Shown one piece after another: positions 4,640 through 46,486 of a stretch of 64,000 nucleotides of DNA. Below the pieces are notes generated by a model. That model was not told the DNA's origin and ran no database searches. It saw only the letters and a program-made list of their open reading frames with translations. Positions within the stretch are counted from its first letter, which is position 1, and the number at the start of each line of letters is the position of its first letter. This DNA comes from Escherichia phage PSD2001, in the sequence record OK254198.1. The stretch is one strand, 5' to 3'. A program made the position numbers and the translations under genes.

Positions 4640-5425
4640 ATGGCAGTAGTAGGAATACCTGGTTGGATTGGAACATCAGCAGTGGCCGAAACAGGTCAAC
4701 GTTGGATGTCTGCAGCTTCTAGAGAATTGCGTCTAGGGAACCCATCTTGGATGTCGCAATTTGCTGGTCGGTCAAGAGAAATTATTCACACAGTAAGTGA
4801 AAACCATAACTTTAACGGTCAATGGTTCCGCGACCGTTGCTTTGAAGCTGGCGCTGCCCCTATTGTGTTTAATATCGTCGGGAATATTGTATCTTATACT
4901 CGTGATGTTCCGTTGTTCTTTATGTATGGCGATACACCTAATGAATACGTTACTTTGAATATCCACGGCGGTGTTCATATGTGGGGACGTGGTGGGAATG
5001 GCTGGGCAGCAGGGGCGATAAATGCCTCAAACGGCGGGGATGTTATACAAAATGATATTGGGGGTCGATTACGTATATGGAACTATGGTGTCATTGCTTC
5101 AGGTGGCGGCGGTGGCGGTGGATATTCAATGGCCAACAACTGGGCTGGTAAGTATGTGGCCGGTGGTGGTGGTGGTCGTCCATATGGTTTAGGCGGTACT
5201 AATGGTGCCGCTTGGCCCGGTGGTAATGCTTCTTATGAAAGTCCAGGAGCTGGTGGTAATACAGGGCAATATTGGGCCGGTGCAGGTGGCGATGCTGGTG
5301 CCCCTGGTCAGGCTGCAAATCCTGGTCATGGTTATTCTACCCCTCCTATGGCCGCCGGACGCGCGGTGTTCGGAAGTTCTCCTGCTTGGGGGGCAACGGG
5401 CACTATCTATGGCTCATGGTTATAG
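4640..5425 (+). CDS. 38: Tail fibre adhesin gp38 (T2/T6-type, glycine-rich motifs)
   Basis: 261 aa; conserved N-terminus [11 protein letters not shown]...[13 protein letters not shown]; C-terminal half has poly-Gly blocks (GGGGGGG, GGGGG) separating short variable segments. Confidence 0.8.
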
Positions 5426-5436
5426 TACATAAGCGC

Positions 5437-5444
5437 TATAAATA
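5437..5444 (+). promoter_or_regulatory. T4-type late promoter (TATAAATA) upstream of holin t
   Basis: Exact TATAAATA about 18 nt upstream of the t start, followed by AAAGGAG Shine-Dalgarno. Confidence 0.55.
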
Positions 5445-5462
5445 TCTTTAAAGGAGAAAAGT

Positions 5463-6116
5463 ATGGAACCAAAAGTAGGAATATCAATACCCGACCTACT
5501 TTTTGGACTTCTTGATAGAATTTTTAAAGATAATGCGACCGGGAAAGTTGTTTTTTCCAGGGTACTAGTTATTGTTCTATTATTTTTAATGGCGGTAATC
5601 TGGTATAAAGGTGATGCACTTTTAGATGCGTACAGGGATGCTTCATATGCCTCATACACTGAAATGATAAGGCAAGACCAGGATAACAGATTTAAAATTG
5701 CAGCTATCGAGCAAATCCAGATAGTCCACTCGTCAAGTGGGGCAGACTTTACAGCAATATATTCTTTTAGACCAACTAACCTTAACTACTTTGTGGATAT
5801 GGTGGGATACGAGGGGATATTGCCTGATACAGTCGACGAAAAAAATTTAGGTGGGTTTCCAATAGATAAAACTTCGGCGGAATATTTGGCGGGGGTTAAT
5901 GGTAATTATTTTGAATCCAGTACGGAATCTGTATTCTTACCAACAAAGAAAAAAAGCAGCTTCACATATATGTTCAGCTGCCCATTCTTTAATTTGGAAA
6001 ACGTTTATGCAGGTACAGTCTCACTGTACTGGTATAAGCAAAAACCTAACCTTGGTTTTGATAGGCTTTCTGCTATGTGTGGACAAGCAGGTCGTACGCT
6101 CGGGCGTACACGTTAG
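5463..6116 (+). CDS. t: Holin (T4 gene t family)
   Basis: 217 aa; FGLLDRIFKDNATGKV, one N-terminal transmembrane segment and a large C-terminal domain (FRPTNLNYFVD, MFSCPFFNLENVYAGT), as in T4 holin T. Confidence 0.85.
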   Translation: MEPKVGISIPDLLFGLLDRIFKDNATGKVVFSRVLVIVLLFLMAVIWYKGDALLDAYRDASYASYTEMIRQDQDNRFKIAAIEQIQIVHSSSGADFTAIYSFRPTNLNYFVDMVGYEGILPDTVDEKNLGGFPIDKTSAEYLAGVNGNYFESSTESVFLPTKKKSSFTYMFSCPFFNLENVYAGTVSLYWYKQKPNLGFDRLSAMCGQAGRTLGRTR

Positions 6117-6388
6117 AATCCGGAGGTATACATCATAAGATAACGGTGTATATCTTCGAATCCTTCGTTAAATTGTTCAATGATTTGTTCAATTTCATCT
6201 TCAGATAAACTTTTAAACAATTTGTTAAACGATACATTGTTTAACTCATTCCCATTCTCATTTCTCAATCCCAACTCATTCAAAAACGCGATAAACACAT
6301 CACGCTTCATCGTAATATCTTCCCGGTCGGTTTTAATCAAAATTGAAGTTACAGTAACAATTTCAGAAACGATTTCAAATTTAGTCAT
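6113..6388 (-). CDS. asiA: Anti-sigma70 factor AsiA
   Basis: 91 aa; IVTVTSILIK...FIAFLNE...FNEGFE...RYLMMYT matches T4 AsiA (90 aa); located right after t as in T4. Confidence 0.85.
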   Translation of the reverse strand: MTKFEIVSEIVTVTSILIKTDREDITMKRDVFIAFLNELGLRNENGNELNNVSFNKLFKSLSEDEIEQIIEQFNEGFEDIHRYLMMYTSGF

Positions 6389-29724: not shown

Positions 29725-29958
29725 TTAAACTACTGGGGTAGGCGTAAACATCGCCGCGTTCTTAGTTCGCCAATCGGCTGCATCAGTCACTACAGTAGTA
29801 TAGGCTGCAACGGCCGAAGGGAAAGTCTGATAATGAGCATTGGCAATACGGTGCTCGTTTGAATAGATTTCAAACGGAACAGATACTTCAACACCTTTAA
29901 CTTCTTTACCTTCACCAGCTGGATGCGTAAAGGTTTTGATATTAACGAAACCACCCAT
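29725..29958 (-). CDS. soc: Small outer capsid protein Soc
   Basis: 77 aa; VNIKTF...AHYQTFPS..AAY.TV matches T4 Soc; has its own late promoter and terminator. Confidence 0.8.
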   Translation of the reverse strand: MGGFVNIKTFTHPAGEGKEVKGVEVSVPFEIYSNEHRIANAHYQTFPSAVAAYTTVVTDAADWRTKNAAMFTPTPVV

Positions 29959-29999: not shown

Positions 30000-30281
30000 T
30001 TACAATTTGGCGGCTTGGACTGCTTTATTGGCTTCAGTCATTTTAGCTAGATTTTCAGCAGTAGGATTGACAATGTATTCGGCTGTAGCTTGAGCAAAAA
30101 CATTATGAGTTTCGATTACATTTTTAGCATTTTCAATATTCATATCAATTTCTTGTTTAGATAAATTTTTTAGTTGATTGGCTAAGAGTTCTACAAAGAT
30201 TTCAACATTAGCGTTTTCAATTATATCATTAATATGCTTCTTACGAGCTTTCTTAAGCTGACGTTTATTTAAACGAGGCAT
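30000..30281 (-). CDS. Hypothetical protein (93 aa)
   Basis: Minus-strand ORF between 56 and soc; basic N-terminus. Confidence 0.45.
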   Translation of the reverse strand: MPRLNKRQLKKARKKHINDIIENANVEIFVELLANQLKNLSKQEIDMNIENAKNVIETHNVFAQATAEYIVNPTAENLAKMTEANKAVQAAKL

Positions 30282-30799
30282 TAATAACCTCGGTCCTGAC
30301 GAGCAAAGTTCTCGGCATTTTTCAGGTAATACAGTTTAAAGATTTCTTCTGCAGTCAGTCCAAGACCATGGAACATATTTAGAACGAAATGTAGAATATC
30401 AATCATCTCGAATTTAATTTCTAGCTGGTCTTCAGGAGACAATTCATCAATACGACGATTACGGAATTCAGCATGTTGCGCTTTCCACGGCTTCCAGCAA
30501 CTGGATGCGGCTTTCTCACCATTAGACATGCCACCGAGCGAAGTCAGAAGTTCACGGAATTCGTCGTCAACATAATCTTTCTGGTTGCGAAGCCATGCAA
30601 CAACATCGCCTGCGGTTGCCAATTCATCTGGATGTGCGTTATATTCTGGTTTTTCTGTAGCCAGACGAACCTGCAAAGATTTCTGCATATCAAGCATAAT
30701 CTGCAGAGGGTCATCATTGCCTTTTAGGACATCATTATACGCATCTTGCGCTTTATCAACACCAGCAATCAGTTGAGAACACTCGTTAAAATGAGCCAT
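30281..30799 (-). CDS. 56: dCTP pyrophosphatase (dCTPase/dUTPase) gp56
   Basis: Start at the ATG giving MAHFNEC...; GVDKAQ, DPLQ.MLDMQ, ETAGDVV.W, DDEFRELLTSLG, SPEDQLEIKFE, EEIFKLYYLKN.ENFARQDRGY match T4 gp56. Confidence 0.85.
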   Translation of the reverse strand: MAHFNECSQLIAGVDKAQDAYNDVLKGNDDPLQIMLDMQKSLQVRLATEKPEYNAHPDELATAGDVVAWLRNQKDYVDDEFRELLTSLGGMSNGEKAASSCWKPWKAQHAEFRNRRIDELSPEDQLEIKFEMIDILHFVLNMFHGLGLTAEEIFKLYYLKNAENFARQDRGY

Positions 30800-30859
30800 T
30801 ATATTTTTCCTTATCAATTCATATTGTTTGTATGTTAATTATATCATATTGGTTTAAAG

Positions 30860-30867
30860 CATAAATA
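30860..30867 (+). promoter_or_regulatory. Candidate late-promoter-like box (CATAAATA) on the plus strand
   Basis: 7 of 8 match to TATAAATA, 17 nt upstream of a strong Shine-Dalgarno and ATG. Confidence 0.3.
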
Positions 30868-30883
30868 CAAGAAAGGAGGATGT

Positions 30884-31081
30884 ATGCTCAAACTATCTAG
30901 TCTAATTCAAGCCATCAAAGGCAGTCGTAAGCGAACGATTCTGGTCCTTTCGATACTCTGTTTTGTTCTACTCTGGAATTTCATTGTTGCCCCTATTGCA
31001 TTGACACATGGTGTTATATTACCAGTCGTCGCGCTCGAATCAGTTGTAGATGTTTCACTAGCATTAATCGGCCTTATATAG
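30884..31081 (+). CDS. Small hydrophobic membrane protein (65 aa) encoded antisense to the early gene array
   Basis: AAAGGAGGA Shine-Dalgarno 4 nt before the ATG; two predicted transmembrane helices; only the S/T-rich frame 30907-31116 opposes it. Confidence 0.35.
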   Translation: MLKLSSLIQAIKGSRKRTILVLSILCFVLLWNFIVAPIALTHGVILPVVALESVVDVSLALIGLI

Positions 31082-31189
31082 GTGGAACTTACTGGTTGTG
31101 CCCATCGCTGCAACACAAGGGGTGCACTTACCCCAGGTCACAATGGAACATATCCATTCCATCATCGGTTACTTTACCGGAATCCCTTC

Positions 31190-32218
31190 CTAAACTTTTG
31201 CGTACTTCGAAAGTCGCATTCTCGCCATCAATCCTTGAGCAACGTTATCGGCCATATATGATTCGATTTGTTCAGGGGTTGCCCCTTCTGATTTAACCAT
31301 CTCATTTATGTCTTTTGTATGCCATGGCGCATTGTCCCAGAACATAACAGCTTCGCCAGCTTCAACGAGCTTCTTCATACGTTTAATCGTATCCGGATGT
31401 CTTGGCTCGTTGTCCATCACCCACACTCTGGTTTCTGGATAAGGAACAGCTTCTAATGCTAATGTTCCACCGGTTATCGCAATGCTGTTAGGGATAAACA
31501 AACTATCAATCGGACCTTCCATTACCCATACACGTTTACGCTCATCAATCTTGTCTACGCCATAGACTTTGGAAGCTTCTGGGTGAGCTTTGATTGTGAT
31601 ATATTTTTGTGGTGCATCTTTGCGAAGAGCTCGTCCTTGGAAAGATTCGATTTCTTTTTTGCCGTTGAAGATAGGAATAACCAAGCGTGGTTCATTCGTT
31701 TCATTCTTATACGTCCCAGGATTAACGGAGTTAACTAATGCAGGCCATTGGTTTGTAAACCATAGTCGGTTCCAAACATTGCTTGGAATACATCGACTTT
31801 TTACATACTTAACTATCGGATGTGCTTCTGGTAAAGTATCGAGTCTTTCACAAAAAGCAAGCTGCTCGATAACCGGAGTTTTTTCTGGTTCTTTCGGAGT
31901 TTCAATGACTTCATTGCGTTGTCGCCCGAAGGCGTTCTCCTTGTACTTCTCAACCATATATTCCCGGTGTAAATCAGGCTCAAACTCTTTTATGTATTTG
32001 CTTATATGCGTGGAGTAGTCACAGTTAAAACATTTCACATAAACCGCACCATCAGACGGATTGGTATACGCCCAGAATCGAGCCTTGTGTGAATCTTTCT
32101 GGGAGTCCCCGCAAACCTTACAACGACAGTTTGCTTTAAATGTGCTCCCGGTGACTTCTCTATAACGTGGTTGATACGATAAAGCTCTGACTGCAAATTC
32201 TTTATCAATATATGACAT
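31190..32218 (-). CDS. 61: DNA primase gp61
   Basis: 342 aa (same as T4 gp61); N-terminal zinc ribbon CRCKVCGD...CFNCDY followed by a Toprim region. Confidence 0.9.
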   Translation of the reverse strand: MSYIDKEFAVRALSYQPRYREVTGSTFKANCRCKVCGDSQKDSHKARFWAYTNPSDGAVYVKCFNCDYSTHISKYIKEFEPDLHREYMVEKYKENAFGRQRNEVIETPKEPEKTPVIEQLAFCERLDTLPEAHPIVKYVKSRCIPSNVWNRLWFTNQWPALVNSVNPGTYKNETNEPRLVIPIFNGKKEIESFQGRALRKDAPQKYITIKAHPEASKVYGVDKIDERKRVWVMEGPIDSLFIPNSIAITGGTLALEAVPYPETRVWVMDNEPRHPDTIKRMKKLVEAGEAVMFWDNAPWHTKDINEMVKSEGATPEQIESYMADNVAQGLMARMRLSKYAKV

Positions 32219-45769: not shown

Positions 45770-46486
45770 ATGAATTATAACATCATTTACCAAAAGCTTA
45801 TTAGCAGAGCATTGAATCGCAAATTAACCACATACTCTGAAAGTCATCACATTATACCCCGTTGTATGGGTGGGGCAGACGATGCTTCAAATCTTGTTGA
45901 TTTAACTCCCGAGGAACATTTCGTTTGTCATCAACTGTTGGTCAAAATGCATCCAAATAATGCTTCTTTGGTCTATGCCGCGCGCATGATGACAGTTTCC
46001 TCACCAAACGCCGACAGAAGCAAAAACAAATTATTTGGATGGCTTCGTCGTAAAAACTTGGAAGCTCAACAAAATAAAATTTTCTCCGATGAAACCAGAA
46101 AGAAAATGTCAGAATCCGCCAAATTAAAACCGAGAGTTGAATGTCCACACTGTGGAAAAACCGGTCTCGTTGGCAATATGAATCGTTGGCATTTTGATAA
46201 CTGTTCCAAAGGTCCAAACAAGGTTGTTCATACTATTCCAGAAAAACAAAAGCAAAAAATTTCAGTAGGATTAAAACAAGCTAAACATGAAATTTTAACT
46301 TGTGAATTTTGTGGTCTTGAAGGTAAAAAGTGTGTTATATCCACTCACCAACAATTCTGCAAATCCAATCCAAACCGGAAGAAAAAGGTGGACCCCAAAA
46401 TTCAGTGTCCACATTGTAATGTAGTCGGTACGCCAGCCAATATGAAACGTTGGCATTTTGATAACTGCAAAATGAAGCCTCAATAA
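45770..46486 (+). CDS. HNH homing endonuclease with three C-terminal zinc-finger-like repeats
   Basis: Start at the ATG at 45770 (MNYNIIYQK...); HNH core SESHHIIPRCMGGADDASNLVDLTPEEHFVCH; repeats ECPHCGKTGLVGNMNRWHFDNC, TCEFCGLEGKKC...QQFCKSN, QCPHCNVVGTPANMKRWHFDNC; opposite strand to all neighbours. Confidence 0.7.
   Translation: MNYNIIYQKLISRALNRKLTTYSESHHIIPRCMGGADDASNLVDLTPEEHFVCHQLLVKMHPNNASLVYAARMMTVSSPNADRSKNKLFGWLRRKNLEAQQNKIFSDETRKKMSESAKLKPRVECPHCGKTGLVGNMNRWHFDNCSKGPNKVVHTIPEKQKQKISVGLKQAKHEILTCEFCGLEGKKCVISTHQQFCKSNPNRKKKVDPKIQCPHCNVVGTPANMKRWHFDNCKMKPQ
45770..46486 (+). mobile_element. Free-standing homing endonuclease gene inserted between 45.2 and 46
   Basis: Single opposite-strand gene wedged between conserved replication/recombination genes, the usual arrangement for T-even mob/seg elements. 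Confidence 0.55.

What the first reader, a model, noticed from the sequence alone, without database searches (positions are those of the whole stretch)
30860..31081. Antisense small membrane-protein gene with strong Shine-Dalgarno and late-promoter-like box between 56 and 61
In the 370-bp gap between gene 61 and gene 56 the plus strand encodes a 65-aa two-helix membrane protein preceded by AAAGGAGGA and, 17 nt further upstream, CATAAATA (one mismatch from TATAAATA). The only minus-strand frame here is S/T-rich and unconvincing. A late-expressed membrane protein embedded antisense in the early region is not part of the canonical T4 map.
Basis: seen in the sequence. Interest (0 to 1): 0.45.

Follow-up and report, generated by a model that had tools for sequence, protein, structure and literature searches.

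The report
Conserved late membrane-protein gene beside primase
The small plus-strand ORF between the dCTPase and primase genes is a real, conserved gene of T4-type phages, present but never annotated in T4 itself; it has a late-promoter box and encodes a 65-residue membrane protein that is distantly holin-like and of untested function.

Summary

It is a real gene. It matches phrog_2024 over its full length. Intact syntenic copies, always convergent with primase gene 61, occur in about 800 T4-type phage genomes from at least six genera. dN/dS is 0.07-0.6. T4 carries an unannotated 66-aa copy at NC_000866 17738-17938.

The late-promoter reading is well supported by sequence. NATAAATA sits 23-30 nt upstream of the ATG in every lineage except Moonvirus (ATTAAATA), while the rest of the upstream DNA diverges. 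In the window ATAAATA is depleted (8 found, 21 expected), and all 8 copies precede an ORF start (P = 3e-9), including soc and holin t. The C at the first position is shared with a MotA-box middle promoter for gene 56 on the other strand.

The protein has a basic N-terminus, one clear transmembrane helix and a conserved GxxLPxVx(E/D) tail. A chain of profile matches links it weakly to GTA-type holins (PF11351). Function is untested.

The gene is not new as an ORF: VR7ORF033w and RB32ORF030w are annotated as hypothetical. A decayed tandem paralogue lies at 31082-31193.

The parts
30860..30867 (+). Late-promoter-like box CATAAATA (7 of 8 matches to T4 TATAAATA). With the T4 geometry, box at -13 to -6, the predicted transcript start is about 30873.
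   Evidence: Sequence. NATAAATA is conserved 23-30 nt upstream of the ATG in every lineage but Moonvirus, and is a perfect TATAAATA in four. All 8 ATAAATA copies in the window precede ORF starts, P = 2.6e-9. Position -13 is variable in T4-like late promoters (PMC1524935).
30872..30880 (+). Shine-Dalgarno AAAGGAGGA, with GGAGG 4 nt before the ATG
   Evidence: Sequence. GGAGG or GGAGGA is conserved in all homologous loci.
30884..31081 (+). 65-aa ORF, copy A of the family: basic N-terminal helix, one transmembrane helix (residues 15-41), a conserved HG-x-x-LP-x-V-x-x-E linker and a short C-terminal helix
   Evidence: phrog_2024, E = 2.7e-26, full length; dN/dS 0.18-0.63 within Gaprivervirus, apart from one pair with no nonsynonymous difference; AlphaFold2, pLDDT 76.7.
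31082..31193 (+). Remnant of a second, tandem paralogue (copy B). The frame WNLLVVPIAATQGVHLPQVTMEHIHSIIGYFTGIPS* lacks its N-terminal half after a 97-bp deletion between GTGGAAC direct repeats. Its stop overlaps the stop of gene 61.
   Evidence: alignment with VR7, VR20, VR25, VR26, EAWsc9; intact A+B tandem on Logan contig L031. tblastn with a type-B protein covers only 55% of the query in close relatives 212 and SP18.
30838..30861 (-). MotA-box middle-promoter-like site for gene 56 (TGCTTTA-N11-TATAAT). It lies back to back with the late box and shares its first two bases.
   Evidence: 8 such sites in the window against 2.0 expected. Assignment to gene 56 rests on position alone, upstream of ATG 30799.
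30281..30799 (-). Gene 56 (dCTPase), left flank
   Evidence: (phrog_173).
31190..32218 (-). Gene 61 (primase), right flank, convergent with the ORF
   Evidence: (phrog_47).

Best explanation
This is a genuine, conserved gene of T-even-type phages. My estimates for each step are given in brackets.

It is transcribed on the strand opposite to the surrounding early genes, from a gp55-type late promoter (CATAAATA), starting near 30873 [inferred from sequence, about 0.8]. The leader is about 11 nt and consists almost wholly of a strong Shine-Dalgarno, the same layout as the holin gene t in this window.

The product is a 65-residue inner-membrane protein [about 0.9]. Its basic N-terminal helix (net +5) should lie in the cytoplasm and one transmembrane helix (residues 15-41) crosses the membrane. 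The conserved, acidic C-terminal 24 residues (GxxLPxVx[E/D]) are either periplasmic or interfacial, or fold back into the bilayer.

The family appears to be a shortened, remote branch of the GTA-type holin superfamily (PF11351-like) [about 0.5].

My best guess for its action is that it oligomerises in the inner membrane late in infection and alters membrane permeability or the timing of lysis, acting as an accessory to the canonical holin T rather than replacing it [about 0.3].

One copy suffices. Gapriverviruses had two tandem paralogues, A and B. Copy B is decaying in several independent ways, while copy A is intact in every genome examined.
For: Real gene:
- Full-length match to phrog_2024.
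- 718 phage records match type A and 113 match type B, nearly all at full length.
- Conserved position convergent with gene 61, usually with overlapping stop codons, in Tequatro-, Gapriver-, Dhaka-, Moon-, Kanagawa- and Marfavirus-like phages.
- dN/dS is 0.10-0.22 in all but one Tequatrovirus pair (0.61), 0.07-0.19 in type B with synonymous sites saturated, and 0.18-0.63 in Gaprivervirus.

Late promoter:
- The box is conserved while the surrounding upstream DNA differs.
- ATAAATA is depleted in the window, and 8 of 8 copies sit upstream of ORF starts, including the known late genes soc and t.
- Variability at -13 is documented (PMC1524935).

Membrane protein:
- AlphaFold2 models a 27-residue helix.
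- Hydropathy and charge distribution fit.

Holin-like ancestry:
- hhalign of the T4-like family against the 96-aa prophage family gives 97.5% probability, E = 6e-12.
- 26 of 27 prophage members hit PF11351 just below threshold.
- The prophage family against the phage Pan1 'GTA-like holin' gives 95.3%.
- PF11351-type proteins include the functionally characterised putative holin TeaA of ICP1 (PMC7182436).

Redundancy of paralogues.
Against: No transcript, ribosome or proteome evidence was found.

The window protein has no Pfam hit even at E = 10. Its direct comparison with the Pan1 holin is weak (34.6%). ICP1 TeaA shows no similarity. Profile matches between short hydrophobic proteins can be inflated by composition.

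The protein lacks the charged hydrophilic C-terminus typical of holins and is not next to an endolysin in T4-type phages. Its prophage relatives sit in a four-gene module of unknown function, not in a lysis cassette. By established knowledge, T4 t mutants do not lyse, so this protein cannot be a self-sufficient holin.

The promoter box has one mismatch in this phage and two in Moonvirus.
Confidence: 0.55

Rival explanations
1. It is a real late membrane protein whose role has nothing to do with lysis. For example, it could bind and inhibit a host membrane protein or a membrane-bound defence effector, act in late superinfection exclusion, or help virion assembly at the membrane.
For: Gene, promoter and membrane evidence are as in the main explanation. 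The holin link is only sub-threshold. The distant 96-aa relatives lie in a GIY-YIG/189-aa/103-aa/96-aa module next to a KAP-NTPase defence-like gene (PDC-S20/PifA-like), once also beside an EcoRII restriction system. That is a defence-island-like setting rather than a lysis cassette.
Against: No PADLOC hit for the protein or its module partners. No partner is identified. The conserved core motif matches the GTA-holin-like core in the same register.
Confidence: 0.3
2. The important product is the late RNA, not the protein. Transcription from the box runs antisense into primase gene 61, with no terminator because the stop codons overlap. It also fires back to back with the gene 56 middle promoter, and so shuts off early and middle expression of 61 and 56 late in infection.
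For: The convergent arrangement with overlapping stops leaves no room for a terminator in T4 and most lineages. Only weak terminator-like hairpins follow in the window. The late box overlaps the MotA-box promoter of gene 56.
Against: Purifying selection acts on the amino-acid sequence. A strong Shine-Dalgarno is conserved in all lineages. At least one intact paralogue is always retained while the other decays. Homologous proteins occur in unrelated genomic contexts without a primase gene. An antisense effect could still exist as a by-product.
Confidence: 0.07
3. It is a chance ORF in an intergenic spacer with a fortuitous AT-rich box, and is not expressed.
For: The ORF is short and several GenBank records leave it unannotated (T4, SP18, DCP80). 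The box has one mismatch.
Against: It is conserved intact across at least six genera down to about 25-30% identity, with dN/dS below 1. The box and Shine-Dalgarno are conserved. The composite motif is 30-fold enriched and otherwise marks t and soc.
Confidence: 0.02

Closest known systems
phrog_2024 / RB32ORF030w / VR7ORF033w family of hypothetical proteins in Tevenvirinae
   Same: Full-length HMM match (E = 2.7e-26). Same size, same position between genes 56/dam and 61, and same strand. The window protein is identical to Escherichia phage PSD2001 UIS66077.1.
   Different: Nothing; this is the family. It has no assigned function and no literature. T4's own copy is not annotated.
GTA-type holins, Pfam PF11351 GTA_holin_3TM (the family name refers to gene-transfer-agent release; ICP1 TeaA assigned by remote homology, PMC7182436)
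   Same: The core pattern W-[NR]-[FY]-x3-P-[VI]-A ... G-x2-LP-x-[VP]-x-[LI]-[DE] ... G is shared in the same register. It links through an intermediate 96-aa enterobacterial prophage family. Like these holins, the protein is small, membrane-embedded and phage-encoded, and is probably made late.
   Different: The window protein does not reach any Pfam score. It is about half the length and lacks the polar linker and the WRxxxGW segment. It is not next to an endolysin. T4-type phages already have holin T. Holin activity is untested.
T4 holin gene t, in this window at 5463-6116
   Same: Same expression architecture: TATAAATA, then 5 nt, AAAGGAG, then 6 nt, ATG, compared with CATAAATA, then 4 nt, AAAGGAGGA, then 3 nt, ATG. 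Both are membrane proteins with a cytoplasmic N-terminus and one transmembrane helix.
   Different: No sequence similarity. T is 217 aa with a large periplasmic domain, while this protein has only about 24 residues after the transmembrane helix.
Late genes embedded in the T4 early region (soc; seg and mob homing-endonuclease genes)
   Same: A late-promoter box directly upstream of an ORF inside an otherwise early and middle transcription region (soc at 29958, putative endonuclease genes at 45770 and 58065).
   Different: soc and the GIY-YIG endonuclease ORF (start 58065) lie on the same strand as their early neighbours. This gene is antisense to them and convergent with gene 61.

Membership tests
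phrog_2024 (RB32ORF030w / VR7ORF033w family) | Significant full-length match to the family profile | tested here: met
   E = 2.7e-26, residues 1-65 on profile positions 1-65 of 65.
phrog_2024 (RB32ORF030w / VR7ORF033w family) | Syntenic position: plus strand, convergent with primase gene 61 | tested here: met
   In this window the decayed copy B lies between the ORF and gene 61.
T4 late genes (gp55/gp33-dependent) | TATAAATA box at -13 to -6, immediately upstream of the gene | tested here: met
   7 of 8 matches (CATAAATA). The ATAAATA core is conserved across lineages and is a perfect TATAAATA in four. Position -13 is known to vary.
T4 late genes (gp55/gp33-dependent) | Transcript appears only after DNA replication starts and depends on gp55, gp33 and gp45 | not testable with these tools
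   No expression data found.
Pfam PF11351 GTA_holin_3TM | Score at or above the gathering threshold (24.8 bits) | tested here: not met
   The window protein has no hit even at E = 10. Two of 12 distant family members hit, at best E = 0.03.
Pfam PF11351 GTA_holin_3TM | Remote homology by profile-profile comparison or through an intermediate family | tested here: inconclusive
   A3 against A7: 97.5%. 26 of 27 A7 members hit PF11351 at 7e-4 or weaker, about 20 bits. A7 against Pan1 'GTA-like holin': 95.3%. A3 against Pan1: only 34.6%. TeaA: no match.
Holins (functional class) | Small phage protein with at least one transmembrane domain | tested here: met
   65 aa; helix 15-41; best 19-residue hydropathy window 2.58.
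Holins (functional class) | Hydrophilic, highly charged C-terminal domain | tested here: not met
   The C-terminal 24 residues contain no K or R and only E52 and D56; the rest is hydrophobic. The charged region is N-terminal.
Holins (functional class) | Encoded next to an endolysin or within a lysis cassette | tested here: not met
   The neighbours are dCTPase and primase. The 'holin' labels in EAWsc9 and UniProt OE5505 are unsupported automatic names.
Holins (functional class) | Forms a lethal membrane lesion that releases or activates endolysin at a programmed time | not testable with these tools
   Needs expression and complementation assays.

The most novel reading that the evidence does not exclude
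T4 and its relatives carry a second holin-superfamily protein, unannotated in T4 itself. It is made late from an antisense promoter at the end of the primase gene and tunes membrane permeabilisation, lysis timing or lysis inhibition alongside holin T. This would add an overlooked component to one of the best-studied lysis systems.
Probability: 0.2. Interest if true: 0.65.

Novelty: new member of a known kind. Interest (0 to 1): 0.4.

Why it matters
T4 is the reference genome for this whole group of phages, yet its RefSeq annotation leaves a roughly 310-bp 'empty' gap between dam and gene 61. That gap in fact holds a conserved gene under purifying selection, with a late-promoter box. Recognising it corrects the canonical map and adds a small late membrane protein to the list of candidates for lysis control, exclusion or anti-defence. 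It also shows a compact arrangement: a late promoter back to back with the MotA-dependent promoter of gene 56, and stop-to-stop overlap with the primase gene. The gene is easy to test in T4. As a sequence finding it is modest, because the ORF is already annotated as hypothetical in many relatives.

Tried and rejected
- **Direct family searches.** Pfam, NCBIfam and PADLOC scans of the window protein gave nothing.
- **RNA families.** An Rfam scan of 30600-31400 gave no hit, so there is no known RNA element here.
- **Minus-strand ORF.** The 69-aa minus-strand ORF was rejected: it has no family and is broken in VR7.
- **Structure search.** A fold search against viral structure predictions returned only members of the same family.
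- **Exhaustive profile search.** A search of 1.84 billion representative proteins found only 20 small proteins and no characterised relative.
- **ICP1 TeaA.** This functionally characterised putative holin, assigned to PF11351 by others, was compared directly and showed no similarity. It does not itself hit PF11351 by hmmscan.
- **Prophage context.** I looked for a lysis cassette around the distant prophage relatives. A lysozyme and a weak holin-like gene lie nearby on some prophages, but the module also occurs without them. Its 189-aa and 103-aa partners look like soluble proteins from their sequences and have no known family, so no functional inference was drawn.
- **'Holin family protein', 'DNA packaging ATPase' and 'dCTP pyrophosphatase' labels.** These appear on some database entries and were judged to be automatic mislabels.
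- **Literature.** Searches for the ORF names, for T4 ribosome profiling and for T4 antisense late transcripts found nothing relevant. The 2003 T4 genome review is not held.
- **Locus searches with distant members.** One related-loci run with the distant-member alignment failed for lack of a conserved stretch, and one with P0169 found nothing.

Full report
**1. What is there**

The window comes from a T4-type phage of the Gaprivervirus group. The 601 bases around the finding are 98.5-99.2% identical to Escherichia phages 212, DCP80 and P896 and to Shigella phage SP18. The window starts in the tail-fibre genes and holin gene t, and runs through the early region.

The finding lies between gene 56 (dCTPase; 30281-30799, or 30817 from the TTG start; minus strand) and gene 61 (primase; 31190-32218; minus strand). 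On the plus strand there is an ATG at 30884 and a TAG ending at 31081, giving 65 codons. AAAGGAGGA lies at 30872-30880 and CATAAATA at 30860-30867.

The only sizeable minus-strand ORF (30907-31116, 69 aa, S/T-rich) has no family match. It is broken into 25- and 23-aa pieces in VR7.

**2. It is a real gene**

- The protein matches phrog_2024, a 65-position profile of unknown function, over its whole length (E = 2.7e-26).
- In VR7 it is annotated VR7ORF033w, 'similar to RB32 ORF030w'. In a Tequatrovirus record the homologue carries the gene name RB32ORF030w.
- tblastn finds it in 718 phage records, 698 of them covering at least 80% of the query. A search with the second subtype adds 113 records.
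- In every genus examined the gene is on the strand opposite to its neighbours and convergent with gene 61, usually with the two stop codons overlapping. The genera are Tequatrovirus including T4, Gaprivervirus, Dhakavirus, Moonvirus, Kanagawavirus and Marfavirus-like Klebsiella phages.
- Nei-Gojobori dN/dS is 0.10-0.22 in all but one Tequatrovirus pair (0.61) and 0.07-0.19 in type B, where synonymous sites are saturated but the protein is kept. Within Gaprivervirus it is 0.18-0.63, apart from one pair with no nonsynonymous difference.

T4 itself has a 66-aa copy (MVQKLMALVNAIKGNKKR...) at NC_000866 17738-17938, in the 'empty' gap between dam and gene 61. It has its own AAAGGAGGA, and nothing is annotated there. 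That exact T4 sequence occurs in the 15-billion-protein collection only from raw-read assemblies, never from an NCBI annotation. So 'not part of the canonical T4 map' is true of the annotation but not of the genome.

**3. The late-promoter reading**

I extracted the 100 nt upstream of the start codon from all distinct loci. The DNA differs completely between lineages, because the upstream neighbour is variously dam, gene 56 or other small genes. An NATAAATA box nevertheless sits 23-30 nt before the ATG in all of them except Moonvirus:

| Lineage | Box |
|---|---|
| Gaprivervirus | CATAAATA |
| T4-like | GATAAATA or AATAAATA |
| Klebsiella, Marfa, Kanagawa and one other lineage | TATAAATA (perfect) |
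| Dhakavirus | AATAAATA |
| Moonvirus | ATTAAATA (two mismatches) |

GGAGG always follows. The published analysis of T4-like genomes states that the T at -13 is poorly conserved, while the box occupies -13 to -6 (PMC1524935). The variable first base is therefore expected.

Within the window the heptamer ATAAATA is strongly depleted: 8 copies against 21.4 +/- 4.1 expected. Every one of the 8 lies 16-39 nt upstream of the first ATG of an ORF on the same strand:

| Downstream ORF | ATG |
|---|---|
| tail-fibre gene | 685 |
| holin t | 5463 |
| this ORF | 30884 |
| HNH-type endonuclease ORF | 45770 |
| GIY-YIG-type endonuclease ORF | 58065 |
| 61.1 homologue | 32417 |
| soc | 29958 |
| 50-aa ORF | 18062 |

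The background rate for that criterion is 0.084, so 8 of 8 has binomial P = 2.6e-9. The composite box-SD-ATG pattern occurs three times against 0.10 expected, and the other two copies are t and soc.

With the T4 geometry the transcript would start near 30873. That gives an 11-nt leader made up almost entirely of the Shine-Dalgarno, close to the layout of gene t.

The single mismatch has a local explanation. On the minus strand, TGCTTTA-N11-TATAAT (30861 down to 30838) is a MotA-box middle-promoter-like site placed for gene 56. Its TG is the complement of the CA that opens CATAAATA. A T at 30860 would destroy the G of the MotA box. This is an inference from sequence.

Late timing itself is not shown. 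I found no transcript, ribosome or proteome data for this ORF.

**4. The protein**

AlphaFold2, run with a 25-sequence family alignment, gives mean pLDDT 76.7. It models helices at residues 2-12, 15-41 and 51-62, with an extended stretch at 42-50.

- The N-terminal 17 residues carry five K/R and no acidic residue.
- The 24 residues after the transmembrane helix carry no K/R and two acidic residues.
- By the positive-inside rule the N-terminus is cytoplasmic.
- The first hydrophobic segment is an unambiguous transmembrane helix (19-residue hydropathy 1.9-2.6 in all subtypes).
- The second segment reaches 2.25 here, but only 1.1-1.2 in two other subtypes, and it contains the conserved LP(P) motif. 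A second span is therefore doubtful.

The invariant or near-invariant positions across the family are W31, N32, P37, A39, G43, P47 and G63, plus an acidic residue at position 52 in nearly all members.

**5. Relatives outside T4-type phages and the holin question**

An exhaustive profile search of 1.84 billion representative proteins found only 20 hits at E <= 0.001; 19 are small (33-82 aa) and the other is a weak five-stretch match in a 1,083-aa protein.

One distant branch turned out, when its reading frame was extended, to be a 92-97-aa protein common in enterobacterial prophages. It consists of an N-terminal amphipathic helix, a polar linker, a WRQGLGW motif and then the same transmembrane-plus-tail core.

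| Comparison | Result |
|---|---|
| T4-like family vs 96-aa prophage family (hhalign) | 97.5% probability, E = 6e-12 over 44 columns |
| 96-aa family vs Pfam PF11351 GTA_holin_3TM | 26 of 27 members hit just below threshold (best E = 7e-4, about 20 bits against a 24.8 cut-off) |
| 96-aa family vs Pseudanabaena phage Pan1 'GTA-like holin' | 95.3% |
| T4-like family vs Pan1 protein | 34.6% |
| Window protein vs Pfam | no hit |
| 96-aa prophage family vs ICP1 TeaA | no similarity |

TeaA is the functionally characterised putative holin assigned to PF11351 by remote homology (PMC7182436).

I therefore regard a remote, shortened relationship to GTA-type holins as plausible (about 0.5) but not established. 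The 'holin' labels found on two database entries are not independent evidence.

As a functional class, holin membership fails two tested criteria: there is no charged C-terminus and no endolysin neighbour. T4 lysis is known to depend on holin T. The prophage relatives sit in a four-gene module (GIY-YIG protein, 189-aa, 103-aa and 96-aa proteins), often beside a KAP-NTPase defence-like gene, and not in a lysis cassette.

**6. A decayed tandem paralogue**

Directly after the ORF, window 31082-31193 encodes the C-terminal half of a second family member of the Klebsiella/Dhakavirus subtype (...WNLLVVPIAATQGVHLPQVTMEHIHSIIGYFTGIPS*). Its stop overlaps the stop of gene 61.

An intact A+B tandem exists on a metagenomic contig (L031) and apparently in VR25 and VR26. 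Copy B has been damaged in several independent ways:

- The window and phage 212 lost 97 bp between GTGGAAC direct repeats.
- VR7 has a +1 frameshift.
- VR20 has a stop at codon 2 and a 2-bp deletion.
- EAWsc9 has several deletions.

Copy A is intact in every genome examined. This pattern fits two redundant protein-coding paralogues of which one is enough. It argues against a purely RNA-level role.

**7. Interpretation and verdict**

Best explanation: a conserved late gene for a small inner-membrane protein, possibly of holin-superfamily ancestry. It probably acts in the membrane late in infection, and my preferred but weakly supported guess is that it is an accessory modulator of permeability or lysis timing.

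Rivals:
- A membrane protein with a non-lysis role, such as exclusion, anti-defence or inhibition of a host membrane protein (about 0.3).
- An antisense or transcription-interference function against genes 61 and 56 (about 0.07). This is possible as a side effect because no terminator separates the convergent genes.
- A chance ORF (about 0.02).

Novelty: the ORF family is already catalogued as hypothetical, so this is a new, uncharacterised member of a known kind (a small late phage membrane protein), not a new kind of system. The useful additions here are:
- the unannotated T4 copy;
- the cross-genus promoter conservation, with statistics;
- the back-to-back late and middle promoter overlap;
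- the paralogue decay;
- the tentative link to GTA-type holins.

Interest is 0.4.

Noticed in passing
window 31082-31193 (+): This is a pseudogene remnant of a second, tandem family member (subtype B). A 97-bp deletion between GTGGAAC direct repeats removed its N-terminal half. Relatives show other, independent lesions, and an intact A+B tandem exists on contig L031.
   Followed up: yes
T4 NC_000866 17738-17938 (+); locus L004 3239-3439: T4 itself has an unannotated 66-aa homologue between dam and gene 61, with AAAGGAGGA and GATAAATA upstream. Its stop codon overlaps the gene 61 stop in a TTAA tetranucleotide.
   Followed up: yes
window 30838-30861 (-): A MotA-box middle-promoter-like site (TGCTTTA-N11-TATAAT) is placed for gene 56, in the region that corresponds to oriA in T4. 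It shares two bases with the plus-strand late box.
   Followed up: partly
window, all 8 ATAAATA sites: 643, 5438, 30861, 45728 (+); 58104, 32440, 29996, 18108 (-): The late-promoter core heptamer is 2.7-fold depleted in the window and occurs only upstream of ORF starts. One perfect TATAAATA lies 16 nt before the 61.1 homologue (ATG 32417) and another lies before an unidentified 50-aa ORF (ATG 18062).
   Followed up: partly
window 45770 (+) and 58065 (-): Two homing-endonuclease-like ORFs each have an ATAAATA box 32-35 nt upstream, which suggests late expression. One carries an HNH-like motif and is 238 aa from its ATG. The other is GIY-YIG-like and 358 aa.
   Followed up: no
loci L039-L042 (enterobacterial chromosomes), about 4670-6291: Distant 96-aa relatives end a conserved four-gene module: a GIY-YIG protein of 149 aa, then proteins of 189, 103 and 96 aa. 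The module usually sits beside a KAP-NTPase (PADLOC PDC-S20/PifA-like), and once beside an EcoRII restriction-modification system. Its function is unknown.
   Followed up: partly
database entries for family members: Family members carry mislabels: 'holin family protein' (EAWsc9), 'Holin' (UniProt, OE5505), 'DNA packaging ATPase' (Klebsiella phages VAC36, SAKp28, EI) and 'dCTP pyrophosphatase' (IME341, SEA1). The same EAWsc9 record also labels a neighbouring gene 'ovule protein'.
   Followed up: partly
relatives RZ, DK-13 and Yersinia phage P8 (hits H22-H24, H33): Similarity to the window stops about 20 nt (RZ, DK-13) or about 1 nt (P8) into the 3' end of gene 61, and a homing endonuclease is annotated there. 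This suggests an insertion or replacement at that junction.
   Followed up: no
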